Assembly (NCBI GenBank): GCA_036677445.1
Contig: JAVBWI010000019.1
Coordinates: 1,535-65,534, forward strand
DNA length: 64,000 nt
Source of the DNA: Clostridia bacterium
Lineage (GTDB): Bacteria; Bacillota; Clostridia; Christensenellales; CAG-138
Direction: 5' to 3'
Shown: one piece after another, positions 5,771 to 62,039 of the stretch
Position numbering within the stretch: position 1 is the stretch's first letter
Layout of the letters: the number at the start of each line of letters is the position of its first letter
Made by a program: the position numbers and the translations under genes
Notes under the pieces: generated by a model
What the model was told of the DNA's origin: nothing
Databases searched by the model: none
The model's input: only the letters and a program-made list of their open reading frames with translations

Positions 5771-7385
5771 AATACCGGCGCTGCTGCTGTGCTTCTTTAT
5801 GGCAGGGTGCAGCGCCACTGCCGCGCCGGAGGCTACCGTTACGCCCATCGCGATTCCAACCGCCTCGCCCGCGCCGCAGCCCGTAGCAGGCGGCGAGCTT
5901 ATTTTACCCATTCCCCGCAACCCTTTCAAAAGCGAAAACAGTACGGGGGCCAATCCGCTCTCGATCAATACGGAAGAGATGCGCAACATGTACTCTTTGG
6001 TGTATGAACCGCTGCTGCGCTGCGACGCTTCCAACCGCATTGTGCCCAGCCTTGCGGAAAAATGGAGCAGCGACGATACCGGGCGGGTCTGGACGATACG
6101 GCTTCGCAACAATGTCATGTGGCATGAGGGCGAAAGCATGCTCAACGCCGACGATGTGCTTTATACCATCGCGCAGATCAAAAGCCTGGGTGAAGAATCC
6201 TACTACTCGCTTGCGGCGAATGCGATAGAAACCTGCGAAAAGGTGGACGAGAGCACACTGCGCATCACCATGTACAAGGCGGGCACGGCTTCGCTTTATT
6301 CGTTGGTATTTCCGGTCATCTGTGCACAGTCCACGCCCGGCAGCCTCAACGGCACAGGTCCTTATAAGGTCGCAAGCTCGACCGAAACGGCGGTCGAGCT
6401 TACCGTCAATGGTCACTGGTGGAAGCAGGCGCCGTATATCACAACCATCCGCTGCCTTGCACGCGACAGCAATGACGTTGCGCTGGATTCGTATGAAGCG
6501 GGTCAGCTCAATATGGTGCCGACCGCCACGGTCTCGGCCGGCAAATACCGTGAGGAAGGCGTTACCAATGTGCTCGACGTGATGACGCAGGACGCGGAGG
6601 TGCTGCTGGTCAACCACAACAACTCGATACTGCGGGACTTGGAGGTCCGGCAGGCGATCGCCTATGCCATTGAGCGCAGCGCGATCGTATCCAACGTATA
6701 TATGAACCGCGCGACGATCTGCGACGTTCCCGTGCCGCCGGATTCTTTTCTTTACGACGCCACCACAAAGATATACGATTACGACACCGCCCATGCCGCT
6801 TCGCTGCTTGCTTCCGCCGGGTGGACGGATGAAGACGGCGACGGTATCCTGCAGCAGGGCTCGCGCGCGCTGCACCTGCGCCTTTTGGTAAACGACAGCA
6901 CGGAGAGCACGTACCGCAAGAACGCCGCCGCGCTGATCGCATCGCAGCTGCTCAAAGTGGGCATTGAGATCGAGATCGAGACAGCGAAGCTGAGCATCGG
7001 CGAGGCGGGCGGCGAGTTTGAGCAGCGGCTCCAATCCGGCGATTTCGACCTTGCCATGGCGGGATTCAATCTGGAACAGAGCGGCAATCTGCTGCCTTAC
7101 CTTTCTTCCAACGGCGCGCGCAATTATGGCGGCATATCCGGCGCCAAATGGGAGCCCCTGATTGCCGCGGCCGCTTCCGCGATCGAGGAAAACAGTATAC
7201 GGGAGGCGCACGCGGCGCTCCAGCAGGCATTTGTGCAGGAACTGCCTTTTATTATGCTGTATTTCCGCATGAGCAGCGTTGTTTACAGCGCCGATATCCG
7301 GGACGTAACGGAGATTCGCGCCACGGACGTGCTGCGTACGGTGAACCGGTGGTATTTCGGTACTTCGGAAACTGCCGCAGGCTGA
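5733..7385 (+). CDS. ABC transporter substrate-binding lipoprotein, family 5 (peptide/nickel type)
   Basis: The in-frame ATG at 5733 gives MKNINRFIKTHFRIPALLLCFFMAGC, a lipobox signal peptide. The body resembles SBP_bac_5 proteins. The track start at 5601 would overlap the SLT gene by 170 nt. Confidence 0.8.
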   Translation: MKNINRFIKTHFRIPALLLCFFMAGCSATAAPEATVTPIAIPTASPAPQPVAGGELILPIPRNPFKSENSTGANPLSINTEEMRNMYSLVYEPLLRCDASNRIVPSLAEKWSSDDTGRVWTIRLRNNVMWHEGESMLNADDVLYTIAQIKSLGEESYYSLAANAIETCEKVDESTLRITMYKAGTASLYSLVFPVICAQSTPGSLNGTGPYKVASSTETAVELTVNGHWWKQAPYITTIRCLARDSNDVALDSYEAGQLNMVPTATVSAGKYREEGVTNVLDVMTQDAEVLLVNHNNSILRDLEVRQAIAYAIERSAIVSNVYMNRATICDVPVPPDSFLYDATTKIYDYDTAHAASLLASAGWTDEDGDGILQQGSRALHLRLLVNDSTESTYRKNAAALIASQLLKVGIEIEIETAKLSIGEAGGEFEQRLQSGDFDLAMAGFNLEQSGNLLPYLSSNGARNYGGISGAKWEPLIAAAASAIEENSIREAHAALQQAFVQELPFIMLYFRMSSVVYSADIRDVTEIRATDVLRTVNRWYFGTSETAAG

Positions 7386-35361: not shown

Positions 35362-36843
35362 TTAACTGCGCCCGTACAGGCGTGTGAGGCAGGCGATTTT
35401 TTCAGCAAGCGCATCGGAACACTCGCCGGGCAGCATGCGCCATTGCCAGTTGCCGCCTACCGTACCGGGGGTGTTCATGCGGCAGCCTGAGCCCAGCTCC
35501 AGATAATCCTGCATCTGCGCAACGAACAGGTCCGCTACGGACGCCATGCCGCCGCGTATCAGCCCCCATACGCGCCCTTCCGCGTCGTTCAGGCCAAGGT
35601 AAGCCTCTGCATGCGCCGCGTCGTCCCGGCTGATTTCCCGCAGCCAGCCTGCCGCGGTGGTGTTGTCGTGTGTGCCGGTGTAGCAAACGCAGTGCCGCGT
35701 GTAGGTATGCGGCAGATAATTGCCCGGCTCGCGCGTATCAAACGCGAACTGTAGCACCTTCATGCCGGGGTAACCTGAGCGTTTTACCAACTCCATCACT
35801 TCATCCGTCAGGTATCCCAAGTCTTCCGCTATGATTGTAAGTTCGCCGAAGCGCTGTTTCATCGCCTCGATCAGGTCCCAGCCCGGCCCCTGCACCCATT
35901 TGCCGTTGCGGGCGGTGGTTTCGCCGCTGGGGACGCTCCAATAGCTTGCAAGGCCTCGAAAATGATCGATGCGTATTACATCAAACATACGGGCCGCCAT
36001 CGCGATGCGGTCCATCCAGAGCGCGTATCCGTTTTTCTTCAGTGATTCCCAGTCGTAAAGCGGGTTTCCCCAAAGCTGCCCGTCGGCGCTGAAATAATCC
36101 GGGGGCACTCCCGCTACGGCGGTGAGATTTCGCTCTTCATCCAGCAAAAAGCATTCGGGTCTTGACCAAACCTCCGCCGAATCCGGCGCGGCGTATATCG
36201 GCAGGTCGCCAATAAGACGTATGCCCCGAAGTGAAACGTATTCCTTAAAGCCCGCCCATTGCCGGAAGAACAGGTACTGTACAAACATATAGAACCGGAT
36301 ATCTTCTTCCAGCAGGCAGGTATAGCGCTGTATGGCCTCCGGCTGCCTGCGCCGTATGGCGTCGTCCTCCCACTGCATCCAGGAGCGCATTCCGAAGTAT
36401 TGCTTGAGCGCCATGAACAGCGCGTAGTCCTGCAGCCAGCAGCTGTTTGCGGATTGGAACGCTTCCATTTCCGCCGCGTGACGCAAAAAGCCGCGGCGGT
36501 ACGCCGCGCGAAGCAAATGGTAACGGTGCGCATAGATTGCTCCATAGTCCACACGGCGCGCACTTTTACCCCAGTTGATAGCGTTTACCTCCTCGCAGGT
36601 GAGCAAGTCGTCCGCAATCAGCATGTCGAGATCAATGAAATACGGGTTGCCCGCATACATGGAAAACGCCTGATAGGGAGAATCTCCGTACCCTGTGTGG
36701 CCAAGCGGGAGCATCTGCCAGTATTGCTGGCCGGCTTTGGCAAGAAAATCCGCAAAGCCATAGGCCGCCCTTCCCAAAGTGCCTATGCCGTGGGGGGAAG
36801 GAAGGGAGGAAATATGCATCAATATGCCGCTGCTGCGCTTCAT
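35362..36843 (-). CDS. malQ: 4-alpha-glucanotransferase (amylomaltase, GH77)
   Basis: MKRSSGILMHISSLPSPHGIGTLG, SPY and DHFRG are typical GH77 motifs. The gene lies downstream of a sugar ABC transporter. Confidence 0.93.
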   Translation of the reverse strand: MKRSSGILMHISSLPSPHGIGTLGRAAYGFADFLAKAGQQYWQMLPLGHTGYGDSPYQAFSMYAGNPYFIDLDMLIADDLLTCEEVNAINWGKSARRVDYGAIYAHRYHLLRAAYRRGFLRHAAEMEAFQSANSCWLQDYALFMALKQYFGMRSWMQWEDDAIRRRQPEAIQRYTCLLEEDIRFYMFVQYLFFRQWAGFKEYVSLRGIRLIGDLPIYAAPDSAEVWSRPECFLLDEERNLTAVAGVPPDYFSADGQLWGNPLYDWESLKKNGYALWMDRIAMAARMFDVIRIDHFRGLASYWSVPSGETTARNGKWVQGPGWDLIEAMKQRFGELTIIAEDLGYLTDEVMELVKRSGYPGMKVLQFAFDTREPGNYLPHTYTRHCVCYTGTHDNTTAAGWLREISRDDAAHAEAYLGLNDAEGRVWGLIRGGMASVADLFVAQMQDYLELGSGCRMNTPGTVGGNWQWRMLPGECSDALAEKIACLTRLYGRS

Positions 36844-36862
36844 TCATACACTCCTGCGGGCG

Positions 36863-37720
36863 TCATCCCTTGACCGCTCCTGCGACAACGCCTTTGATAA
36901 TGTGCCGTTGGCTGGTAAGATAGAATACGACGATCGGCGTGATCGCCAGCACCAGCATGGCCATCATCGCCCCCATATCGATTGAGCCGTAACCGCCTTT
37001 CAAATACTGTATGGCGATGGGTATGGTCTTGTGGTCCGTATCCAGCAGCAGGTATGGCAGGAGGTAATCGTTCCATATCCACATGGTGTTGAGTATGGCG
37101 ACCGTGATGGCGGTGGGTTTTAGAATGGGAAATACGATTTTAAAGAACGTGCGGATGGGCCCGCAGCCATCCATCATGGCGGCTTCTTCCACGTCAACGG
37201 GGATGGACTTGACAAACCCGCTGAACATAAAGGTAGATAACCCCGCGCCAAACCCCAGGTAGATCAATATAATGCCGAAGGGATTGTCAAGGTGGAGCAT
37301 ATTTGCAAACTTGGACATAGTGAACATGACCATTTGAAACGGTACGATCATGGAGAACACAAGCGTGTAATAAATTACCTTTGTGAACGTACGCTTGACA
37401 CGGGTGATATACCAGCCGGTCATGGCCGTAAAGAGCACGATAACGGCGACCGAGCAAACCGTGATAAACAGCGACCAAAAGAACGCCTGCCAGAAGCCGA
37501 TCTTTTCAATACCGCTGCTATAATTGCTTAAGCCCGCAAAGGTGCCTTCCGCCGCCGAAGGGAACGAGAAAGGCGCGGAGCTGATGAACAGCTTTCCCTT
37601 GAAGGAGTTCATCAGTACGATGCCGATGGGGGAAAGGTATAACAGAGCAAGTACAGAGAGTAGCAAGCCCATCAGGGTACGGATGGACCGCTGCCGGTGT
37701 GAACGGCTTTTGCTGTTCAT
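36863..37720 (-). CDS. Carbohydrate ABC transporter permease (MalG-like)
   Basis: 6-TM protein with an EAA loop (EEAAMMDGCGPIRTFFKIVFP). Confidence 0.9.
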   Translation of the reverse strand: MNSKSRSHRQRSIRTLMGLLLSVLALLYLSPIGIVLMNSFKGKLFISSAPFSFPSAAEGTFAGLSNYSSGIEKIGFWQAFFWSLFITVCSVAVIVLFTAMTGWYITRVKRTFTKVIYYTLVFSMIVPFQMVMFTMSKFANMLHLDNPFGIILIYLGFGAGLSTFMFSGFVKSIPVDVEEAAMMDGCGPIRTFFKIVFPILKPTAITVAILNTMWIWNDYLLPYLLLDTDHKTIPIAIQYLKGGYGSIDMGAMMAMLVLAITPIVVFYLTSQRHIIKGVVAGAVKG

Positions 37721-42569: not shown

Positions 42570-43703
42570 ATGCTTCGGCCGACTCATGCGATCATTGATT
42601 TGGATGCACTCAGGCACAACATCCGGTTGTTGCGGGCCAATGTGGGCGATGAAGTAAAGTACATGTCGGTGGTAAAGGCCAATGCGTACGGGCACGGCAT
42701 CGTCGAGATCGGGAAAGTAACAGAGGAATTCGGCGCCGATTATTTGGGCGTGGCTATCCCGGAGGAGGGGAAGCGGCTGCGCGAAGCCGGCATTCACATC
42801 CCGATACTCATACTCGGCGGCATACTGCCTGATGGTGCCGATATGGTTCTCGCCTATGACCTGGCCCCCACGGTATTCACATGTGAAATACTGACTGCGC
42901 TTCAGCTTGCGGCGCAGCGGCAGGGTAAAGTATGCGGCATACACATCAAAATCGATTCCGGTATGAACCGTATCGGCGTAAAGACGGCGGAAGAGTTTGA
43001 AAAGCTGCTGCTGCTGGCGAAAAACAGCCCCAATATCCGCGTGGAAGGTTTGTTTACGCACTTTGCGGTGAGCGAGATACCGGATAAATCCTTTACCATC
43101 GAGCAGAACGACCGCTTTATGGCGTTTGTGCGCATCGCGCAGGAGATGGGCTTTTCGCCGCTCGTACATGCCTGCAACAGCGGCGCGCAGCTGGATATGC
43201 CCGAAGAGCTCAAGCATGCCATGGTGCGCGGCGGCATCGCCATGTATGGCTACCATCCCGGCGCACAATGCGGGCGCTGGGCCGATCTTCGGCCTGTGCT
43301 GACATGGAAGACTGCCGTACTGCACGTAAAAGAAATACAGCCGGGAGAAACCGTGAGCTATGGCAGGCGCTTTACCGCCGCACAGCCGCGTTTGATCGCC
43401 ACGTTGCCCCTGGGGTATGGCGATGGCTATAAGCGCTGCCTTACCAACAAGGCGCAGGTGCTGATCCATGGCCAGCGCGCGCCTATCGTGGGTACGGTGT
43501 GTATGGATCAATGTATGGCGGACGTGACGGATATCGGCGGCGTACGTCCGGGCGACGAGGTGGTGCTCATCGGCAGGCAGGGCAATGAAAACATCAGTGC
43601 GGACGAAATGGCGGGCTGGGCGGATACCATCAGTTATGAGATATTGCTCAGCATCAGCGACCGCGTGCCGCGAATCTATTCGGGCGCAGGGTCGGAACAG
43701 TAA
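42570..43703 (+). CDS. alr: Alanine racemase
   Basis: The PLP-lysine motif VVKANAYGHG and C-terminal YE.L..I..RVPR. GGAGGAAG precedes ATG 42570. Confidence 0.93.
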   Translation: MLRPTHAIIDLDALRHNIRLLRANVGDEVKYMSVVKANAYGHGIVEIGKVTEEFGADYLGVAIPEEGKRLREAGIHIPILILGGILPDGADMVLAYDLAPTVFTCEILTALQLAAQRQGKVCGIHIKIDSGMNRIGVKTAEEFEKLLLLAKNSPNIRVEGLFTHFAVSEIPDKSFTIEQNDRFMAFVRIAQEMGFSPLVHACNSGAQLDMPEELKHAMVRGGIAMYGYHPGAQCGRWADLRPVLTWKTAVLHVKEIQPGETVSYGRRFTAAQPRLIATLPLGYGDGYKRCLTNKAQVLIHGQRAPIVGTVCMDQCMADVTDIGGVRPGDEVVLIGRQGNENISADEMAGWADTISYEILLSISDRVPRIYSGAGSEQ

Positions 43704-43722: not shown

Positions 43723-43978
43723 CTCCGCCCCGGCGTTTTATCGCCGGGGCGGCCAGAGTGTAAAAAAAGTCTTTATGGTTAGCAAACGAGTGCCGCAATA
43801 GGCTTCATTCGCGAGCGGCGACACGTGCGGCGCGAGCGAAAAGCCTTGCGGCGCAAGGCTTTCCTTGCAGGAACCACCGACCGCATCAAAGATGCAGGCG
43901 GTTCCTGTGAAACTCAAAAAAGTGACGCAGTCACTTTTTTGACAGCCTCTCCGCCCAGGCGTTTTATCGCCGGGGCGG
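43723..43978. repeat. Copy A of a ~195-bp multi-hairpin intergenic element, bracketed by a duplicated 30-nt terminator hairpin
   Basis: Direct repeats CTCCGCCC(C/A)GGCGTTTTATCGCCGGGGCGG lie at 43723-43752 and 43949-43978. The core between them carries three consecutive hairpins and is homologous to 48498-48692. Confidence 0.75.
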
Positions 43979-44039
43979 CGTTTGCCTTTAAAGGGTTTTG
44001 TGTACCTGTAACTACATGCAAAGGAAGGCGGAAGAGGAC

Positions 44040-45533
44040 ATGCTGCAAATACTCACGCCCGAACAGTCGCGGCGGCTGGATGTGCATATGATAGGGGAGC
44101 AGGGCATCCCCGGCATCGTGCTGATGGAGCATGCGGCGCTGGGCGTTGTGGAGGCTGTGCTTAGGCTGATGAACCCGCAGGGGCGGGTATGCATACTGTG
44201 TGGCGGCGGCAACAACGGCGGGGACGGCATGGCCGTGCTGCGGCAGCTCATTATGCGCGGCGTATCTGCATCCGCGGTGCTGTTGGCGGGACCGGAACAG
44301 CTTACAGGGGATGCGCTTACGCAGTACCGCATGGCGGCCGTATGCGGCTTGCCCATAACCCTTGCATTGACCGATGAGGCCGTTGAAGCGTTGCATTTCT
44401 CCGATGCGGATGTGCTGGTGGATGCGCTGTTCGGCACGGGCCTTTCCCGCGCGGTACAGGGGCGGTATCTGCGCGCCATTGAGCGCATCAACGACTCCGG
44501 CAAGCCGGTGGTGGCGGTGGATATCCCTTCGGGTGTGGACGGCGCAACGGGGCATGTGCTGGGCGCGGCCGTACAGGCGGCGGTGACCGTGACGTTCCAG
44601 AATAAAAAGCTGGGGCATCTGCTGTTCCCCGGCCGCGAGTATGCCGGCGAGGTGCGCGTTGTGCCTATCGGCCTGCCCGCGCTGCCGCTGGAGGCTGCGC
44701 TGGAGCTGGAGGAATCCGATGTACGCGCGCTGCTGCCGGAACGTCCGTTGGACAGCCACAAAGGGAAAAACGGGCACGCGCTGCTATGTGCGGGCAGCGG
44801 GCAATACGCGGGGGCCGCGCTGCTTGCGGCGAGATCGGCGCTCCGTTCGGGCTGCGGCTTGCTGCATGCTGCGGTGCCGCGGGGTATCCGCGCGGTGTTT
44901 GCGGATTGTCCCGGGGCGATCTGCCATCCCGTAGGCTGCTCGGAGGAATGGCAGGACGCTGCCGCCCAGGAGGCGATTGCGCTGCTGCCAAAGGTACAGG
45001 CCGCGGCCATAGGGCCGGGCATGGGCACAGGCGGGGGAATATCGATATTGCTCGAAGCAGCGCTCAATACCGGCAAGCCACTCATTATCGACGCGGATGG
45101 GCTCAATGCGCTTGCGGCCAATCCGAAGCTTATGCGGCTGCTGCACAAAAACGTATTGCTTACGCCGCATCCGGGAGAGATGGGGCGGCTTACGAACAAA
45201 AGCGTACCGGAAATACTGGATGATCCTGTACGTGTGGCGCGGCAGGCGAGCGGAGCCTGGGGCTGCGTAGTGCTGCTTAAGGGCGCTACGAGCGTCATCG
45301 CACAGGGGGACAGGGTATGCCTTAACGCAACAGGCAACCCCGGCCTGGCCAAGGGCGGCAGCGGCGATGTGTTAACGGGCATACTGCTTGCGCTGCTCGC
45401 ACAGGGGCTTGCGCACTTTGAGGCGGCAAGTGCCGGCGCGTATCTATTAGGCTGTGCGGCGGAGGAAGCATATGCGCTGCTGGGTACGCGCATGCTGCTC
45501 CCCACCGACGTTATCGATGCGCTGGGCAATTGA
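44040..45533 (+). CDS. nnr: Bifunctional NAD(P)H-hydrate epimerase / ADP-dependent dehydratase
   Basis: An N-terminal YjeF_N domain (GGGNNGGDG) and a C-terminal carbohydrate-kinase-like domain (GPGMG, GSGDVLTG). ATG 44040 follows AAGGAAGG...GAGG. Confidence 0.9.
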   Translation: MLQILTPEQSRRLDVHMIGEQGIPGIVLMEHAALGVVEAVLRLMNPQGRVCILCGGGNNGGDGMAVLRQLIMRGVSASAVLLAGPEQLTGDALTQYRMAAVCGLPITLALTDEAVEALHFSDADVLVDALFGTGLSRAVQGRYLRAIERINDSGKPVVAVDIPSGVDGATGHVLGAAVQAAVTVTFQNKKLGHLLFPGREYAGEVRVVPIGLPALPLEAALELEESDVRALLPERPLDSHKGKNGHALLCAGSGQYAGAALLAARSALRSGCGLLHAAVPRGIRAVFADCPGAICHPVGCSEEWQDAAAQEAIALLPKVQAAAIGPGMGTGGGISILLEAALNTGKPLIIDADGLNALAANPKLMRLLHKNVLLTPHPGEMGRLTNKSVPEILDDPVRVARQASGAWGCVVLLKGATSVIAQGDRVCLNATGNPGLAKGGSGDVLTGILLALLAQGLAHFEAASAGAYLLGCAAEEAYALLGTRMLLPTDVIDALGN

Positions 45534-45585
45534 GCCGCCATTGCGGAAGATATTATACAGTGCTATCTGGGCGCTATATGCTTAC

Positions 45586-45619
45586 AAAACGGGCGTGCCG
45601 TAGTCGGCACGCCCGTTTT
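45586..45619. terminator. Bidirectional intrinsic terminator between convergent nnr and the PLP enzyme gene
   Basis: AAAACGGGCGTGCCG-tagt-CGGCACGCCCGTTTT. Confidence 0.85.
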
Positions 45620-45638
45620 GTAAGAGGTAGGAAAACAA

Positions 45639-48469: not shown

Positions 48470-48720
48470 AGCAGTCTGTCGTATCCGGCAGGCTGCTCTG
48501 ACTGTTGATAAACCCCTTGGGGATTCGGGGACCGCAGTCCCCGGAGGCTTCCAACCGCCGCCAGCGACATGTGCGGTGGCGGCGGAAAGCCTTGCGACGC
48601 AAGGCTTTCCTTGCAGGAACAACCGCCCGTGCCGCAGGCACAGGTTGTTCCTGTAATTCTCGAAAAAGTGCAAGCACTTTTTCGACAAGCTAAGCAGTCT
48701 GCCATATCCGGCAGGCTGCT
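48470..48720. repeat. Copy B of the ~195-bp multi-hairpin element, bracketed by a duplicated 28-nt hairpin
   Basis: Direct repeats AGCAGTCTG(TCG/CCA)TATCCGGCAGGCTGCT lie at 48470-48497 and 48693-48720. The core is homologous to copy A (GAAAGCCTTGCGnCGCAAGGCTTTCCTTGCAGGAAC...GTTCCTGT...AAAAAGTG....CACTTTTT). Confidence 0.75.
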
Positions 48721-57293: not shown

Positions 57294-60200
57294 ATGAGGT
57301 ATTCATCACCCCTAAAGCGCATGGCATACATAACGCTTGCATTCCTGATGCTGCTGTCCCTGTTCCCCCATAAGGCAAAAGCTGCCGCCACTACCCTCGG
57401 GAGCAAACCGGTAGGCTCCATTGTCAAAATCAAGGAAGATGGCGTTTATCAAAATTACATCGTCATTCAGTCATATTATGAAGATAACCCCGGAACGCTT
57501 CTCATGAGGCAGAAAGGTACTGCCGGCAATGAAAATGGTTGGGGCTTCAACAGCCTTGCCGCAGGTCCTTACTTCGGGAGTTCACTGGATCAATGGCTCA
57601 CAACCTACTACAGAAATAAATTGGAAAGCGGTATTCTTTCCAAGCTGCAGCCAATAAACATGCACTGTGATCAGCAATACGCAACACGAGATATATTTAC
57701 TTTTTCTATCACGGAGCTTGGCTTATCACATTCAAATTACCGAAGCAATGGCTCCCACATACCTTACTTCAACGTCAACACAAGAATAATGGGAAGCGAT
57801 TACGGAAGCCCTGCACCGTACCTTACCCGTTCAGCAAATCGATATGATGAAATGTACAGCGCAAAGATAACGACTAGTGGGACTATAATTGAAAACTACA
57901 AAATCGTCTTTGGATATTTTATGTTCCCCTTGTTCGTCCTTCCGGATGATATGCTGGTCGCAGATACCGGAGAAATTCTTGTGAACACGCCTCCCACCGC
58001 TCCCGAATCGATCACGGCAATGCACAGCGGAAACAATATCAATGTCAGCTGGACAATCTCCACAGACGCGGATGGAAATCTTACGGGGTACATCCTGGAG
58101 CGAAGCGTAAACGGAGAATCATGGAGTGTTGTCAAAGACACTGCCTTCACTACATATGAAGACACTCTTGCCGAAGGCTGGCCCTCCGCCGTATACCGTG
58201 TGAAGGCATATGACAGTGACGGGCTGGAATCGGAATATACGGTCAGCGATGTTCTACCGTTGCCTTACATCACCGGAATTGACGTTCCGGCAACCATGCC
58301 GTATACGGGCGGGGATGCCACAATAACCGTTTCCGGCGTTAACCTGTATGACGGTATCACGATCAAGGTTTTCGACGGAATAGTGGAAGTACTAAGCGGC
58401 AGCACCACAGGCAACGGTACCGAGCAGGCCGTCACACTTCTGTTTCCAGCAAACACAAGTTTTACAACAGACAAAACCTATACGGTAAAAGCGTCTCTGG
58501 ACGAGGGAGCGACTTGGAGCAACTTCACAAAAACCGTGGTGGTGGAGCGAAATCTTTCACCCCTCATTTCAAATGTAACAGTGTCTCCTGTCAGCCTCGA
58601 TCACAACGGAGGTACAGTCAACATAACTGTCATAGGGTTCAATCTGTCGGACGGGATGCTTGTGGAGGCATACGCCGGTGAGGATACAATTGAGGGTCCC
58701 ACGACCGGTGATGATATGACGCAAGCCGCCAGCCTGGAGTTGCCTCCGAGCCAGGTTTACGTGGATGCAACGGTTTATGGCGTGCGCGCTTCGTTGGATG
58801 ACGGCGAAAACTGGTTTATTTCGCCTATGGAAGTAGCCGTCTCCCCGCAGGTTCTACCTGCGCCCATGATAACTCGGAACCTGGATACGGATATGGCGCT
58901 GGTGGAAAAGGATACTCTGGAATTGACCATACAGGCGAGCGCGGAAGCAGGCGCGCTTTCGTATCAGTGGTATAAAGACGGGGTGCCAATTCCAGAAGAA
59001 AAGGCGGATACGCTTACGATACCGGATATCGCGCTCACGGACGCTGGCGAGTATTCCTGCACCGTCACAACCACGATACAGGGCAAGACAGCCAGCGCCA
59101 CAAGCCGCGTATGCAGTGTTTCTGTCCAAAAGCAGGCGGATTTACCTACGATACTTGAGAATCTGCCAGAAGAGAAAACGGTTATAGAGTGGCACGAGCT
59201 CTCCCTGTCCGTTACGGCAAGCTGTGAAACCGGATCTTTGTCATATGAATGGTTCAAGGACGGCACATTGATTTCGGGAGAAACGGAAGCAGTATTGCTT
59301 ATCCCGGAAGCTGAACCGGAGGATACCGGAACCTATTTCTGCAAGATCACCAGCACTTATGGCCTGTCGCAGAAATCCGTAGATAGCATTTCCTGCGATG
59401 TGGCTGTTCAAGAAAACATTCCGGTATTTGAAAACGACTTGCCGGATAAGCAAGCTGTTATCGAGGCGCATACATTTGCGTTGTCGGTATCCACCTCCAG
59501 TCCTGCCGGAGAGATATCCTATCAATGGTACAAGGATAATTTGCCGTTGACAGGAGAAACATCTCCGGAGCTGTGCATCCCTTCCGTTGTAACGGAGGAT
59601 GCAGGTGAATTCTTCTGCCGTGCTACGGCTACATATGAGACATATCAGCGGTCGGCAGATAGTAACACCTGCACGGTCAGCGTCGAAGGGAATTTGCCCG
59701 AGTTAGTTGATGATCTTCCTTCTGAAATGACGCTCATTGAAACGCAGGACCTTACGCTATCGGTAACGGCAAACAGCCCGGACGGGGGACTTTCCTATGC
59801 CTGGTATAAGGATGATGCTTTACTCCCCAGAGAAATCGAGCCAACATTGCACATATCCTCCGTCACGATGGCCCATGCGGGCCTTTACTTTTGCCGGATC
59901 GTCAATACTTACGGGGAAATGCAATGGGCGGTAGACAGCACGGTCTGCTCCGTCAGCATTCAGGAAGGACCCGCCACACCCGTGATCGAGCAGGATTTGG
60001 AAGACAACGTTACTGTAACTTCAGGCAGCGGTTTATCCCTTGCCGCAAGCGCATCCAGCGCAAACGGCACGCTTTCCTGCCAATGGTATAAAGACGATGC
60101 CGCTTTGCCGGACGCGACCAATAGCTCGTTGTTCATTGAGTCCGTCATCTCTGACGATGCTGGCGAGTATTATTGCATCTTTACCAACACCATAGGGGAG

Positions 60201-60782
60201 GTGACGGCATCCGCTCGCACGCGCACCTGCCTTGTCGTATATGATGACCCGGAACCTGATCCGAGTCCGACGCCGGATCCAGAACCCTCGCCAGAACCTA
60301 GCCCCAGCCCGTCGCTGGAGCCTGATCCCAGCCCGTCACCGGATCCCACTCCAACGTCGGAACCCACCCCAACGTCAGAACCCAGTTCAAGTCCGTCGCC
60401 AGAGCCTAGTCATAGGCCGTCACGAACGCATCGGCCCAAAACTACGCCAAGCCCAACGCCCAGCTCTACCCCCAGCCCAACGCCGAAGGCGAGTCTCCGC
60501 CCAACGTTGAGGCCCAGGGTGAGCGCGACACTGTCTCCCAGCCCGATCGTGAGTCCCAGCCCATCCCCTGACCCCGGCCCCAGCCTAACGCTCAATCCGG
60601 AACCGGAACCTATTCCTACCGTCTCGCCAACACCATCCACTCCCATCGCGACTGAAGCAGACTTGCCCGATCCCGAACCTTTCAAGCAAGACGGTACTGC
60701 CATTCTTGTTGGAATCGGTATCGTGGTCATTCTTATATTGGCCGTGGCTATCTATTTGCATCAGAGGCGAAAAAGGGTGTAA
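57294..60782 (+). CDS. Large membrane-anchored surface protein: N-terminal domain, FN3, two Ig/TIG-like modules, five I-set-like Ig repeats, Pro/Ser/Thr linker, C-terminal TM anchor
   Basis: Signal peptide MRYSSPLKRMAYITLAFLMLLSLFPHKAKA. An FN3-like region (PPTAPESI...YRVKAYDSDGLES). Five ~90-aa repeats with W(Y/F)KD and D.G.Y.C motifs. A PEPDPSPTPDPEPSPEPSPSPS... linker. The C-terminus GTAILVGIGIVVILILAVAIYLHQRRKRV has no LPXTG. AGGAGG precedes ATG 57294. Confidence 0.85.
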   Translation: MRYSSPLKRMAYITLAFLMLLSLFPHKAKAAATTLGSKPVGSIVKIKEDGVYQNYIVIQSYYEDNPGTLLMRQKGTAGNENGWGFNSLAAGPYFGSSLDQWLTTYYRNKLESGILSKLQPINMHCDQQYATRDIFTFSITELGLSHSNYRSNGSHIPYFNVNTRIMGSDYGSPAPYLTRSANRYDEMYSAKITTSGTIIENYKIVFGYFMFPLFVLPDDMLVADTGEILVNTPPTAPESITAMHSGNNINVSWTISTDADGNLTGYILERSVNGESWSVVKDTAFTTYEDTLAEGWPSAVYRVKAYDSDGLESEYTVSDVLPLPYITGIDVPATMPYTGGDATITVSGVNLYDGITIKVFDGIVEVLSGSTTGNGTEQAVTLLFPANTSFTTDKTYTVKASLDEGATWSNFTKTVVVERNLSPLISNVTVSPVSLDHNGGTVNITVIGFNLSDGMLVEAYAGEDTIEGPTTGDDMTQAASLELPPSQVYVDATVYGVRASLDDGENWFISPMEVAVSPQVLPAPMITRNLDTDMALVEKDTLELTIQASAEAGALSYQWYKDGVPIPEEKADTLTIPDIALTDAGEYSCTVTTTIQGKTASATSRVCSVSVQKQADLPTILENLPEEKTVIEWHELSLSVTASCETGSLSYEWFKDGTLISGETEAVLLIPEAEPEDTGTYFCKITSTYGLSQKSVDSISCDVAVQENIPVFENDLPDKQAVIEAHTFALSVSTSSPAGEISYQWYKDNLPLTGETSPELCIPSVVTEDAGEFFCRATATYETYQRSADSNTCTVSVEGNLPELVDDLPSEMTLIETQDLTLSVTANSPDGGLSYAWYKDDALLPREIEPTLHISSVTMAHAGLYFCRIVNTYGEMQWAVDSTVCSVSIQEGPATPVIEQDLEDNVTVTSGSGLSLAASASSANGTLSCQWYKDDAALPDATNSSLFIESVISDDAGEYYCIFTNTIGEVTASARTRTCLVVYDDPEPDPSPTPDPEPSPEPSPSPSLEPDPSPSPDPTPTSEPTPTSEPSSSPSPEPSHRPSRTHRPKTTPSPTPSSTPSPTPKASLRPTLRPRVSATLSPSPIVSPSPSPDPGPSLTLNPEPEPIPTVSPTPSTPIATEADLPDPEPFKQDGTAILVGIGIVVILILAVAIYLHQRRKRV
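58848..60240 (+). repeat. Five tandem ~270-bp coding repeats (Ig-like modules) inside the surface protein gene
   Basis: Repeated protein pattern: L.L.V.A......LSY.WYKD......E...L.I......DAG.Y.C..T.......S......V.V. Confidence 0.8.
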
Positions 60783-61040
60783 CTTTGTGACCAAATGAGG
60801 ATGTGCTCGATTGGAGATAAAGGCAATATCAAGAAAAACGTTGACGCCCCCGGAGGGATACTTTCTGGTATCCCTTCGGGGCAAGGGCAAGGATGATATC
60901 TATCAGCCCCAAAAGAACATTGCGAAAAGCACTTTGTCTGCAGCGCTTGCGCGTATTTGCATGATTTCCCGTAGGTTAGGTGATTATCTTAGAATTTTAT
61001 CAGAACAGCTATCCCACGGGATGTCGAAAGAATGCATATA

Positions 61041-61208
61041 TGGTATAATATTGGAAATCCGATAGATTTCGATATAGCTATGTTTGCATTAGCTATAATG
61101 CAAAGCTTAGTGAAGTACCGGTAGTAGCAATATAATCGGAACCTCGGCGAAGATTGTAGCAAAAATGCGAAGCTCGTTCTTGAATTGTAAAATTAATATT
61201 CTTATACT
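61041..61208 (+). promoter_or_regulatory. Candidate promoters and palindromic leader upstream of the nuclease-helicase pair
   Basis: An extended -10 TGgTATAAT at 61041-61049. A second candidate TTGAAT-17 nt-TATACT at 61180-61208. Overlapping inverted repeats ATAGCTA/TAGCTAT (61074-61096) and TTTGCATTA-gcta-TAATGCAAA (61083-61104). Confidence 0.4.
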
Positions 61209-61217
61209 TTTGGGTGT

Positions 61218-62039
61218 ATGGAGATATTTAATATGAATCCGCCTAAGTACATCGACTGGTTTGTAGAGGAAAGCACCGTCACTTTAGAAGATGGCATTCC
61301 TATCTCATGCTACCGCCTAGACTATACAGTGGATGATGCTATTTATTGTGAATGGGCGTTGCATCTTCGCCAACACTATGAATCTGATGCTGAAATAGAA
61401 GAGTCCCTTGCGGTAACGGGGATGTCTGTTGAGCAATATTTGCGAACCCGTGTCATACCACAAAAAGATGATCCTTTCGGGCCAACATCTCGTTCAAATG
61501 ATTTTACTGAAATTATGGTTTCCGACCTACTGGAGTTCATACAGGGTTATACCGTGCCTCGTTGTAAACAACGGAATCGGTCAGGTAAGACTCAAAGTGA
61601 GCATGGCACTGACATTCTCGCATATAAGTATGCAAAAGCCACCAAGAAACCTGATAGTGAAGATGAATTGTTAGCGGTTGAGGTAAAGGCAGGCTTATCC
61701 TCCGATAAATACGATCCGATAAGTAATGCTGTTACCGATTCCCATGCTTATGATGAGGTCAGGCATGCACTTACATTGAATTACTACCGTAAAAAACTAC
61801 GCAACATAAATAATGAACAGGCGAATGAAATTGCTCGTTTCCAACAAAAGTCCGAACATGATTATCTTATTACCTATATAGCCGCAGCAATTATCAGCCG
61901 TGATCATATAGCTGATGATATTGTGTTGGGCATTAGGGGTGACGAACTGGAATTACGCCAAGATAATAGAGTTTTTCTAGTTCATGGGAAAAAGCTAATG
62001 GCTTTGGCGCATGACATATTTGAGAGGTGTATAAAATGA
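61218..62039 (+). CDS. hamA: PD-(D/E)xK-type putative nuclease, HamA (DUF1837)-like by motif and gene context
   Basis: 273 aa. It carries GTD(132)ILAY...23 aa...LLAVE(155)VK(157)AG, a D...ExK arrangement. Its stop overlaps the start of a DEAH helicase (ATGA at 62036-62039). An alternative start is ATG 61233, preceded by GGAG. The family name was not verified by an HMM. Confidence 0.7.
   Translation: MEIFNMNPPKYIDWFVEESTVTLEDGIPISCYRLDYTVDDAIYCEWALHLRQHYESDAEIEESLAVTGMSVEQYLRTRVIPQKDDPFGPTSRSNDFTEIMVSDLLEFIQGYTVPRCKQRNRSGKTQSEHGTDILAYKYAKATKKPDSEDELLAVEVKAGLSSDKYDPISNAVTDSHAYDEVRHALTLNYYRKKLRNINNEQANEIARFQQKSEHDYLITYIAAAIISRDHIADDIVLGIRGDELELRQDNRVFLVHGKKLMALAHDIFERCIK

What the first reader, a model, noticed from the sequence alone, without database searches (positions are those of the whole stretch)
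43723..43978. ~195-bp three-hairpin element inserted at the alr terminator, with the whole 30-nt terminator hairpin duplicated on both sides
Downstream of alr, the hairpin CTCCGCCCCGGCG-TTTTAT-CGCCGGGGCGG (43723-43752) occurs again 226 bp later (43949-43978) with a single substitution.

Between the two copies lies a segment built of consecutive hairpins:
- a perfect palindrome, GAAAGCCTTGCG/CGCAAGGCTTTC;
- CAGGAACCaCC...GGcGGTTCCTG;
- an A-tract/stem/T-tract terminator-like hairpin, AAAAAAGTGA-cgcag-TCACTTTTTT.

The same core recurs at 48.5 kb, flanked there by a different, locus-specific duplicated hairpin. A 28-30-nt flanking duplication that coincides exactly with a terminator stem-loop is much longer than ordinary transposase target duplications. 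It suggests an element, or an insertion mechanism, that targets or copies hairpin DNA. I do not recognise it as a named MITE/REP family.
Basis: seen in the sequence. Interest (0 to 1): 0.7.

Follow-up and report, generated by a model that had tools for sequence, protein, structure and literature searches.

The report
Hairpin-targeting miniature transposon (IS1182-type MITE)

Summary
At 43723-43979 a 195-nt element (43754-43948) lies between two copies of the 31-nt alr terminator hairpin. A second copy (48498-48692) lies between two copies of a different 28-nt hairpin.

It is a dispersed repeat. About 50 copies were found in 10 uncultured Clostridia MAGs. In 14 of 29 complete copies, the copy's own flanks match better than any of 808 mismatched flank pairs, and the duplication length (about 26-46 nt) follows the hairpin length.

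A related strain has an empty site for copy B: one hairpin and no insert. Two more empty sites were seen between MAGs.

The element's ends (CAGnCTGTYGAWAAA ... TTTTTCGACAAGCTA) match the ends of IS1182-family insertion sequences: 14/16 and 12/16 positions against ISCbo5. I checked two autonomous members directly, ISCbo5 on a C. botulinum plasmid and an IS in a Bacillota MAG. Both are themselves flanked by duplicated, locus-specific hairpins.

Published work shows that this family targets hairpins by structure, not sequence. One paper proposed whole-stem-loop duplication as one possible outcome of transposase attack at the feet of a cruciform.

Verdict: a previously undescribed MITE of the IS1182 (ISCno1/ISCbo5-like) group. 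The cognate transposase gene was not found. The internal hairpins are unusually well conserved, and I cannot explain why.

The parts
43723..43753 (+). Left copy of the target-site duplication at site A. This is the alr terminator hairpin, CTCCGCCCCGGCG-TTTTAT-CGCCGGGGCGG(C). Its T-tract has been displaced by the insert.
   Evidence: repeat D6: 31 nt, 97% identity.
43754..43948 (+). MITE copy A, 195 nt, with no ORF. It belongs to the divergent subfamily and its left-end hairpins are degenerate.
   Evidence: (nhmmer 1.6e-48).
43754..43769 (+). Left terminal inverted repeat of copy A, CAGAGTGTAAAAAAAG.
   Evidence: compared there with the left ends of ISCbo5 and the P0124 IS.
43808..43839 (+). 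Internal hairpin, corresponding to helices 2 and 3 of the family structure.
43840..43862 (+). Internal perfect palindrome AAAGCCTTGCG-G-CGCAAGGCTTT (helix 4).
43868..43907 (+). Composite internal hairpin CAGGAACCaCC...GCATC-aaa-GATGC...GGcGGTTCCTG (helices 5 and 6). It differs from copy B by compensatory changes.
43914..43942 (+). Subterminal hairpin of A-tract, stem and T-tract (helix 7). Its 3' arm runs into the right inverted repeat.
   Evidence: ISCbo5 and the P0124 IS have an analogous right-end hairpin.
43933..43948 (+). Right terminal inverted repeat of copy A, ACTTTTTTGACAGCCT.
   Evidence: (inverted repeat I1).
43949..43979 (+). Right copy of the target-site duplication at site A. This hairpin keeps the downstream T-rich tail GTTTGCCTTT.
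48470..48497 (+). Left copy of the target-site duplication at site B, the terminator hairpin of the upstream 343-aa Big_14 gene.
48498..48692 (+). MITE copy B, 195 nt, close to the family consensus. Its ends are CTGACTGTTGATAAA ... TTTTTCGACAAGCTA.
   Evidence: (nhmmer 8.2e-60). It is absent from the related strain L051.
48693..48720 (+). Right copy of the target-site duplication at site B.
42570..43703 (+). Context: the alanine racemase gene, whose terminator was the target at site A.
   Evidence: Pfam Ala_racemase_N and Ala_racemase_C.
44040..45533 (+). Context: the downstream YjeF_N/Carb_kinase (Nnr) gene.

Best explanation
The two elements are copies of a non-autonomous DNA transposon (a MITE). 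It derives from, and is presumably moved in trans by, an IS1182-family DDE transposase of the ISCno1/ISCbo5 group.

Proposed steps:
1. A terminator-type inverted repeat in the target DNA extrudes as a cruciform, or otherwise presents two hairpins.
2. The transposase recognises the structure, not the sequence.
3. The two 3'-OH ends of the element are joined to the two target strands at the 5' foot of each hairpin. The two attack points are close together in space but a whole hairpin apart along the duplex.
4. Gap repair then copies the entire stem-loop, leaving hairpin-element-hairpin.

Consequences: the duplication length equals the hairpin length, give or take a few bases. Insertion occurs in either orientation. 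Because the element starts immediately after the stem, the left hairpin copy loses its T-tract, while the right copy keeps it and can still terminate transcription.

Shown here: mobility, hairpin-sized duplication, lack of target sequence specificity, both orientations, end similarity to IS1182-family elements, and the same behaviour in autonomous relatives.

Inferred, not shown: the identity of the mobilising transposase in this genome, cruciform extrusion, and the chemistry of strand transfer.
For: Mobility and duplication:
- 45 loci in 10 MAGs carry the core, and a profile search finds about 50 copies.
- 14 of 29 complete copies have flank repeats stronger than all 808 cross-pairs.
- Duplications range from about 26 nt (L005) to 43-46 nt (L033) and follow hairpin size.
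- Long variants are also flanked by duplicated hairpins: L009 (770 nt between repeats), L002 and L010.

Empty sites:
- The related strain L051 has one hairpin where the window has hairpin-element-hairpin.
- L024 is empty where L016 is filled, and L015 is empty where L026 is filled.

Link to the IS1182 family:
- ISCbo5 on NC_015418 (IS 35706-37319) encodes a transposase with Pfam DUF772 and DDE_Tnp_1_6.
- ISCbo5 begins CAGGCTGTTGATAAA and ends TTTTTGAACAATCTGA. It sits between two copies of GTAAAGATAGCACACCTTATAGGTGTGCT.
- End identity of the MITE to ISCbo5 is 13-14/16 on the left and 12/16 on the right.
- A second autonomous relative, P0124, named IS1182 family by NCBI, has four insertion sites. 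Each is flanked by a different duplicated 14-21-nt hairpin.

Target choice:
- 36 of 42 copies lie within 200 nt of a gene's 3' end.
- Orientation is unbiased: 11 co-directional, 13 antisense, 12 between convergent genes.
- L021 and L022 carry the element in opposite orientations at the same terminator.

Literature:
- IS1272/TnSha1 of the IS1182 family target hairpins structure-specifically in both orientations (PMC4923244, PMC5678879).
- PMC5678879 Fig. 13, pathway b, predicts whole-stem-loop duplication when the ends join at the 5' feet.
- ISCbo5 sites are terminator hairpins (PMC3098183).
Against: - No IS1182-family transposase gene was found in the 64-kb window or in about 400 kb of related loci. 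A metagenome scan for the right end found no parent. So the mobilising enzyme in these genomes is unidentified.
- Similarity to known IS1182 members is limited to about 16 nt at each end, the right-end hairpin architecture, and a hairpin plus GGAGG motif on the left. The 130-nt core has no counterpart in ISCbo5 or the P0124 IS.
- The best-studied family member, IS1272, deletes the hairpin instead of duplicating it.
- About half of the complete copies lack a recognisable duplication. Decay (the left hairpin copy at the L026 site, which is empty in L015) or recombination between copies could explain this, but it is not proven.
- The internal hairpins show more structural conservation than a passive MITE needs.
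Confidence: 0.8

Rival explanations
1. The element is primarily a structured non-coding RNA module, for example a 3'-UTR or terminator-associated RNA. Selection on its fold explains its conservation, and mobility is secondary or the element has been domesticated.
For: - In 27 copies, 48 base pairs are 97.5% paired. 17 pairs show compensatory changes, and 0 of 500 shuffles reach the observed values.
- About 53 G.U cells against about 15 A.C cells favour folding of the + strand.
- Variable-length expansions sit at hairpin tips, as in functional RNAs.
Against: - No Rfam family matches.
- No promoter-like site lies inside the copies.
- Orientation relative to neighbouring genes is random, so there is no consistent transcript context.
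- Much of the covariation separates just two subfamilies, so it reflects few independent events.
- Empty sites and target duplications show it is first of all an insertion.
Confidence: 0.12
2. A different hairpin-specific enzyme, not an IS1182-type DDE transposase, moves the element. Candidates are an HUH/Y1 transposase (IS200/IS605 or REP/RAYT type), a tyrosine recombinase, or a Cas1-like integrase. Cas1-Cas2 duplicates a CRISPR repeat by staggered attacks at its two borders (background knowledge, not checked here).
For: - No IS1182 transposase was found near any copy.
- The hairpin-sized duplication formally resembles repeat duplication during CRISPR spacer integration (background knowledge).
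- In L031 and L043 the right hairpin copy has its loop inverted, which hints at hairpin-based DNA processing.
Against: - The ends match IS1182-family ends at both termini and in the correct register next to the duplication.
- Two autonomous IS1182-family elements produce the same duplications.
- IS200/IS605 and REP/RAYT elements make no target duplication and need a conserved 4-5-nt target motif (background knowledge). The sequences abutting the element are locus-specific hairpins with no shared sequence.
- No conserved core sequence is shared between the hairpins, so sequence-specific recombination is excluded.
Confidence: 0.05
3. It is a retroelement or an RNA-mediated insertion: either target-primed reverse transcription, which gives variable long duplications, or a degenerate group IIC intron, a class that inserts next to terminators.
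For: - Duplication length is variable.
- The + strand shows a folding bias.
- Group IIC introns are known to sit downstream of terminator hairpins (PMC1702495).
Against: - At 195 nt with no ribozyme domains, it gives no intron hit in Rfam.
- It has terminal inverted repeats typical of DNA transposons.
- The duplication is bounded by the hairpin feet, not by a nick-site motif.
- It inserts in both orientations.
- Group IIC introns do not duplicate the hairpin.
Confidence: 0.02
4. These are coincidental local duplications, from replication slippage or template switching at palindromes, around a non-mobile repeat.
For: Palindromes are hotspots for template switching. One loop inversion (L031) looks like such an event.
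Against: - The same 195-nt unit with the same boundaries lies between unrelated hairpins at more than 14 loci.
- Empty sites differ from filled sites by exactly the element plus one hairpin copy.
Confidence: 0.01

Closest known systems
IS1182 family, ISCno1/ISCbo5 (ISBma2-like) group of Clostridia
   Same: - The terminal sequences match: CAGGCTGTTGATAAA ... TTTTTGAACAATCTGA in ISCbo5 against CAGnCTGTYGAWAAA ... TTTTTCGACAAGCTA in the MITE.
- Both have a subterminal A-tract/stem/T-tract hairpin at the right end, and a hairpin plus GGAGG near the left end.
- Both insert at terminator hairpins at gene ends (PMC3098183).
- Both duplicate the hairpin. I verified this for ISCbo5 on NC_015418 and for four sites of the P0124 IS.
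   Different: - The MITE has no transposase gene.
- The MITE is 195 nt against about 1.6 kb.
- It carries about 130 nt of G+C-rich conserved hairpins with no counterpart in those IS.
- Its hosts are uncultured Oscillospiraceae/Feifaniaceae-like Clostridia.
- The parent IS has not been found.
IS1272 / TnSha1 (IS1182 family, staphylococci)
   Same: Both target hairpins and terminators by structure, with no sequence consensus. Both insert in either orientation, often just downstream of genes (PMC4923244, PMC5678879).
   Different: IS1272 and TnSha1 delete or replace the stem-loop and leave no target duplication. The element here duplicates the whole stem-loop. That outcome is drawn only as a hypothetical pathway b in PMC5678879.
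Bacterial MITEs in general (Correia, RUP, BOX, SPRITE, ERIC, etc.)
   Same: All are short, non-coding, multi-copy and intergenic. They have terminal inverted repeats, fold into stable structures, and show presence/absence polymorphism.
   Different: - The usual duplications are 2-10 bp of fixed length. Here they are 26-46 bp and set by target structure.
- A 2024 review of prokaryotic MITEs does not mention IS1182 anywhere in its text (PMC10969869).
Group IIC introns and REP-targeting IS (IS1397, IS110-type ISPpu10)
   Same: These also use extragenic hairpins or terminators as landing sites (PMC1702495, PMC1525189).
   Different: - They insert beside or inside the hairpin without duplicating it.
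- Their enzymes are different: reverse transcriptase plus ribozyme, IS3-type DDE, or DEDD recombinase with bridge RNA.
- REP targets are sequence families, not arbitrary hairpins.
CRISPR spacer integration by Cas1-Cas2 (an analogy only, from background knowledge; not checked with tools or papers here)
   Same: Two staggered strand transfers occur at the two borders of an often palindromic 28-37-bp repeat. Gap repair then duplicates the whole repeat.
   Different: The enzyme and the substrate are different. Site choice is set by leader and repeat sequence and a molecular ruler, not by any hairpin. No cas genes are involved here.

Membership tests
MITE (non-autonomous DNA transposon) | Short, with no coding capacity. 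| tested here: met
   195 nt; the long variants of 300-770 nt also lack transposase similarity.
MITE (non-autonomous DNA transposon) | Terminal inverted repeats. | tested here: met
   The consensus left end against the reverse-complemented right end gives 12/16. See also inverted repeat I1.
MITE (non-autonomous DNA transposon) | Target-site duplication, and presence/absence polymorphism with empty sites. | tested here: met
   for duplications; for empty sites.
MITE (non-autonomous DNA transposon) | Multiple dispersed copies per genome. | tested here: met
   Up to about 13 copies in one MAG, and 10 MAGs in total.
MITE (non-autonomous DNA transposon) | A cognate autonomous element with the same ends in the same genome. 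| tested here: inconclusive
   None was found in the window or in about 400 kb of loci.
IS1182 family (ISCno1/ISCbo5 group) derivative | Ends homologous to the ends of family members. | tested here: met
   13-14/16 on the left and 12/16 on the right against ISCbo5; 11-12/16 on the left against the P0124 IS.
IS1182 family (ISCno1/ISCbo5 group) derivative | Structure-specific insertion into inverted repeats or terminators, with no sequence consensus and in either orientation. | tested here: met
   Literature: PMC4923244, PMC5678879, PMC3098183.
IS1182 family (ISCno1/ISCbo5 group) derivative | Long duplication of variable length, equal to the target hairpin. | tested here: met
   About 26-46 nt for the MITE. 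Autonomous relatives give 14-30 nt.
IS1182 family (ISCno1/ISCbo5 group) derivative | Mobilised by a DUF772 + DDE_Tnp_1_6 transposase. | not testable with these tools
   This needs whole-genome searches of the host assemblies and a transposition assay. The domain architecture was confirmed only for ISCbo5 and its homologues.
IS1272-type stem-loop-replacing transposition | The target hairpin is deleted and there is no target duplication. | tested here: not met
   The hairpin is kept and duplicated.
IS200/IS605-derived PATE or REP/RAYT element | No target duplication; a conserved 4-5-nt target motif next to the left end; subterminal hairpins of conserved sequence. | tested here: not met
   Duplications are present. 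The flanks are unrelated hairpins with no shared motif.
Group IIC intron | Ribozyme domains I-VI; inserted downstream of a terminator without duplicating it. | tested here: not met
   There is no Rfam intron hit and the element is only 195 nt. The hairpin is duplicated.
Any curated RNA family (Rfam 15) | A covariance-model match at or near the gathering score. | tested here: not met
   The best hit scored 19.9 bits against a cut-off of 100, and it fell on the flanking hairpin. Nothing was found in 12 related loci except an unrelated malK-I RNA and a SAM riboswitch.

The most novel reading that the evidence does not exclude
The conserved hairpin architecture of the element may be functional, not just inherited. 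The evidence is compensatory substitutions that even rewrite the right inverted repeat while preserving its hairpin, and a G.U bias toward one strand. Either of two readings would fit:
- Transposition in this IS1182 clade proceeds through folded single-stranded ends: structure recognising structure, with hairpinned ends meeting a cruciform target.
- The MITE has been co-opted as a terminator-adjacent RNA module.

In either case, the hairpin-length duplications would be a natural readout of a cruciform-directed DDE integration mechanism that has never been shown biochemically.
Probability: 0.2. Interest if true: 0.65.

Novelty: new member of a known kind. Interest (0 to 1): 0.35.

Why it matters
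- It explains two odd intergenic structures in this window and about 50 more in related uncultured Clostridia.
- It gives the IS1182 family what appears to be its first described MITE.
- It provides a clean natural data set: many independent events, empty sites, and hairpins of 14-46 nt. The data show that this clade inserts at the feet of terminator hairpins and duplicates the whole stem-loop. That outcome had only been drawn as a hypothetical pathway for IS1272, which deletes the hairpin instead.
- Practically, such elements break short-read assemblies at terminators, as seen in the Logan contigs. They also create tandem terminator copies that could change termination efficiency or 3'-UTR content of many genes.
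- Structure-directed, sequence-independent integration next to terminators is also of some interest as a low-damage landing strategy.

Tried and rejected
- **Rfam searches.** I ran the window at gathering scores, the 400-nt region at E<=10, and 12 related loci. None matched the element.
- **IS200/IS605-TnpB omega-RNA, IscB/HEARO, IS110 bridge RNA, retron, group IIC intron.** I considered these because of the multi-hairpin RNA-like look. I rejected them because of the target duplication, the terminal inverted repeats, the absence of a conserved target motif, and the lack of any linked ORF.
- **Long variants as autonomous partners.** They are the same element with expansions in one hairpin tip and have no ORF.
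- **Partial profile hits.** L012 2045-2108 and L027 1623-1701 are truncated remnants, not ends of a larger element.
- **Search for a parent IS.**
  - A motif scan for extra ends in all held DNA found nothing.
  - A tblastn search with two IS1182 transposases against the window and the loci held then, L001-L051 (about 400 kb), found nothing.
  - The single metagenome scan, with the right-end hairpin pattern, returned 5 loci with only palindromes and no transposase.
- **blastn of copy B against plasmids and phages.** No match.
- **Exact-protein look-ups for alr and nnr.** These first returned only contigs that break inside the element. The empty site came from the neighbouring site B on L051.
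- **Accession guesses for the C. botulinum plasmid.** Two failed or gave the wrong plasmid before NC_015418 was found.
- **Literature.** The Everyman's Guide review was not held. My recollection that ISfinder lists direct repeats of 0-60 bp for IS1182 therefore rests on memory only.

Full report
**1. The observation**

The sequence is as described. A 31-nt hairpin, CTCCGCCCCGGCGTTTTATCGCCGGGGCGGC, lies 20 nt downstream of the alr stop codon at 43723-43753. It recurs at 43949-43979 with one substitution (repeat D6).

The 195 nt between the two copies (43754-43948) are built of consecutive hairpins. A second copy lies at 48498-48692, between two copies of an unrelated 28-nt hairpin at 48470-48497 and 48693-48720. 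The two elements align over their whole length. They differ by compensatory changes in their stems, for example GCATC/GATGC against GTGCC/GGCAC.

A 35-nt core pattern occurs twice in the window and never in 100 shuffles. Both regions fold far better than shuffled controls, with z-scores of -10.2 and -9.7.

**2. It is a dispersed repeat family**

A 21-nt core word found 45 loci in the species-representative genome collection. Apart from one chance match inside a Muribaculaceae gene, all are in uncultured Clostridia: Bacillota, Oscillospiraceae, Feifaniaceae and Eubacteriales MAGs. One MAG has up to about 13 copies. A profile built from 23 copies finds about 50 copies in those loci and only the two known ones in the window.

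The consensus is:

CAGtCTGTCGAAAAA-CCCTTGGGG-TTCGGGGGCCGCAGCCCCCGGAGGCTTCCAA-CCGCCGCCAGCGACATGTGCGGTGGCGGCGG-AAAGCCTTGCGnCGCAAGGCTTT-CCTTG-CAGGAACAACCGCCCGTGCCGTAGGCACAGGTTGTTCCTG-TAATCC-TCGAAAAAGTGCCGCAGGCACTTTTTCGACAAGCTA

Its ends are inverted repeats, 12/16. Longer versions of about 300, 480 and 770 nt are the same element with extra structured sequence inserted in one hairpin tip. They contain no ORF.

**3. The flanking hairpin duplication is general and marks an insertion**

In copy after copy, a different locus-specific hairpin is present on both sides, at the same distance from the element's ends. Among 29 complete copies with both flanks available, 14 have an own-flank direct repeat stronger than any of 808 mismatched left/right flank pairs.

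The repeat length follows the hairpin: about 26 nt in L005, 27-32 nt in most, and 43-46 nt in L033. Long variants are flanked in the same way (L009, L002, L010).

Three empty sites were found:
- A related strain (Logan SRR27162510, locus L051) has the Big_14 gene and the PadR gene separated by 220 nt with a single hairpin. The window has 439 nt there, with hairpin-element-hairpin. The difference is exactly the element plus one 28-nt hairpin.
- L024 is empty where L016 is filled.
- L015 is empty where L026 is filled. In that older insertion the left hairpin copy has decayed while the right one is intact. This probably explains many of the copies that lack a recognisable repeat.

Site A is filled in both strains, and short-read contigs break inside the element.

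**4. What it is**

No curated RNA family matches. There are no hits in plasmid or phage collections.

The literature search gave the lead:
- IS1182-family elements target hairpins by structure. IS1272 and TnSha1 insert into terminator hairpins with no sequence consensus and in both orientations, but they delete the stem-loop (PMC4923244, PMC5678879).
- ISCbo5 of Clostridium botulinum group III sits at terminator hairpins at gene ends (PMC3098183).
- PMC5678879 draws a model in which the transposon's 3' ends attack a cruciform. Attack at the 3' feet deletes the stem-loop. Attack at the 5' feet would duplicate the whole stem-loop (their pathway b).

I then examined ISCbo5 directly on plasmid p3BKT015925 (NC_015418). 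It is a 1,614-bp IS at 35706-37319 encoding a 454-aa protein with DUF772 and DDE_Tnp_1_6 domains. It starts CAGGCTGTTGATAAA and ends TTTTTGAACAATCTGA. It has a subterminal A-tract/stem/T-tract hairpin at the right end, and a hairpin followed by GGAGG near the left end. It is flanked by two copies of GTAAAGATAGCACACCTTATAGGTGTGCT.

The MITE's ends are nearly the same. Copy B's left end matches in 14/16 positions, the consensus in 13/16, and the right end in 12/16. The MITE also has the same right-end hairpin and the same left-end hairpin-plus-GGAGG arrangement.

A second autonomous relative is P0124, 61% identical to the ISCbo5 transposase and called IS1182 family by NCBI. It was recovered at several sites in a Bacillota MAG. 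Four clean sites each show a different duplicated hairpin abutting the ends CAGACTG...AACCTG:
- AATGCCCTAAAGGGCATT
- AAACTAATAAGTTT
- AACCTCTTATTTTTAAGAGGT
- AGATTCCCCTATAAGGAATCT

So whole-hairpin duplication is a property of this clade of IS1182-family elements. The element in the window is a miniature, gene-less derivative with the same ends and the same behaviour.

**5. How it most likely works**

A DDE transposase of the IS1182 family, supplied in trans, binds the inverted-repeat ends. It inserts the element at an extruded inverted repeat, joining the two 3' ends at the 5' foot of the hairpin on each strand. Repair synthesis then copies the stem-loop on both sides.

This accounts for four features:
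- The duplication length is variable and set by the hairpin.
- The targets share no sequence.
- Copies sit at gene ends: 36 of 42 lie within 200 nt of a gene's 3' end.
- There is no orientation preference: 11 co-directional, 13 antisense, 12 between convergent genes. One orthologous terminator is occupied in opposite orientations in two MAGs.

Because the element begins directly after the stem, the left hairpin copy loses its T-tract and the right copy keeps it. A working terminator is therefore preserved downstream, which may make such insertions nearly harmless.

The cruciform step and the chemistry are inferred from the geometry and from the published model. They were not shown here.

**6. 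What remains open**

- **The transposase was not found.** tblastn with two IS1182 transposases hits nothing in the window or in about 400 kb of related loci. No additional ends were found. The one metagenome scan recovered only short palindromes. Whole assemblies could not be searched.
- **The internal 130 nt have no counterpart in ISCbo5 or the P0124 IS, yet are strongly structured.** In 27 copies, 48 pairs are 97.5% paired and 17 pairs carry compensatory changes. No shuffle out of 500 reaches the observed values, and slid registers collapse to about 40% paired.
  - Many of these changes separate two subfamilies, so independent events are fewer than the counts suggest.
  - However, the terminal hairpin that contains the right inverted repeat covaries repeatedly. 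Examples are TCCCAAAAG.../...CTTTTGGGA in L032 and similar cases in L008, L019, L020 and L030.
  - G.U cells outnumber A.C cells by about 53 to 15 on the + strand.
  - These points suggest that the fold itself matters, for transposition or as RNA. The random orientation relative to host genes and the absence of an internal promoter-like site argue against a simple RNA role.
- **About half of the complete copies lack a clear duplication.** Decay and recombination between copies are plausible causes but unproven. In L031 and L043 the right hairpin copy has an inverted loop. I cannot explain this.

**7. Comparison and novelty**

The closest known systems are the IS1182-family elements ISCno1, ISCbo5 and ISBma2, which share the ends, targets and duplication. 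IS1272/TnSha1 have the same target logic but the opposite outcome. Group IIC introns and REP-targeting IS use hairpins as landing sites but do not duplicate them. CRISPR repeat duplication by Cas1-Cas2 is only a geometric analogy, recalled from background knowledge.

A 2024 review of prokaryotic MITEs does not mention IS1182 anywhere in its text. The T. kivui paper states that little is known about the mechanisms of IS1182-family elements, which act with or without target duplication or deletion, and on sequence or structure.

Interest is moderate to low (0.35). The conserved architecture, and the clean natural evidence for foot-of-cruciform integration, are the parts a transposon specialist might want to follow up.

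Noticed in passing
window 54227-62039: A tRNA gene (54227-54300) is followed by a block with lower third-position G+C. The block encodes ParA-like (55034-55849) and ParB_N (55809-56762) proteins, a 1164-aa protein with many Ig domains (57288-60782), and a HamA (Hachiman-like) protein (61218-62039). This is probably an integrated mobile element or defence island at the tRNA.
   Followed up: partly
L016 ~6660-6710, L039, L044 (one orientation); L029, L030 ~2900-2945 (opposite orientation); also in long variants L010, L014, L009: A module of about 45 nt, CCTCGGCGGGAGACGCCTCGGCACTAGGCCTGCGGGCCGTCG, appears at the tips of two different MITE hairpins in both orientations. It looks like a tiny nested insertion or a recurrent structural module. 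It has no Rfam match.
   Followed up: partly
L044 ~2760-2810; L004 2677-2711, 6094-6255, 7594-7676: A second small repeat family (...CCGCTTAGGGCCGTAACGGCCCTAAGAACCC...) was seen. In L044 it occupies the same position just before the terminator that the MITE occupies in the orthologous L027 locus.
   Followed up: no
L017 602-661 and 6237-6297 (inverted); L004 1499-1547 / 5944-5993; L028 left flank; L040 1070-1091 / 3139-3159: A third repeat family has the motif AAGGTATCGGCGC...GCGCCGACG. The two L017 copies are inverted and 5.6 kb apart, so they could be the ends of a larger element.
   Followed up: no
L031 5962-5988 vs 6186-6212; L043 flanks: The right copy of the duplicated hairpin has its loop reverse-complemented (TTTTA against TAAAA) while the stems are unchanged. 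The two copies are therefore inverted, not direct. The cause is unexplained; it may be an intra-hairpin inversion or a variant insertion event.
   Followed up: partly
L004 1069-1363: Two MITE copies lie head to tail, sharing a junction.
   Followed up: no
L021 5340-5533 (+) vs L022 3610-3735 (-): In two MAGs the orthologous terminator carries the MITE in opposite orientations, and the L022 copy is internally deleted. This is either two independent hits on the same hairpin, or an inversion by recombination between the palindromic flanking copies.
   Followed up: partly
L065 ~1105-1155, L067 ~315-362, L068 ~865-912 (metagenome Ga0081455): A 50-nt perfect palindrome, GTCGCACATTGTCGAAAAAGTGCCGCGGCACTTTTTCGACAATGTGCGAC, recurs at three or more loci of a high-G+C organism. 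It shares 16 nt with the MITE inverted repeat. It could be an ends-only relative, or the match could be coincidence.
   Followed up: no
window 45581-45624: A perfect 20-bp inverted repeat with a 4-nt loop lies between the convergent nnr gene and the 530-aa gene. It is a likely bidirectional terminator, and the MITE has not inserted there (repeat I3).
   Followed up: no
NC_015418 (L053) 35677-35705 vs 37320-37359: At the ISCbo5 site the duplicated segment covers the full 5' arm and the loop but only 8 nt of the 3' arm of a roughly 40-nt hairpin. The duplication is therefore not always foot to foot. L044 shows the same asymmetry for the MITE.
   Followed up: partly
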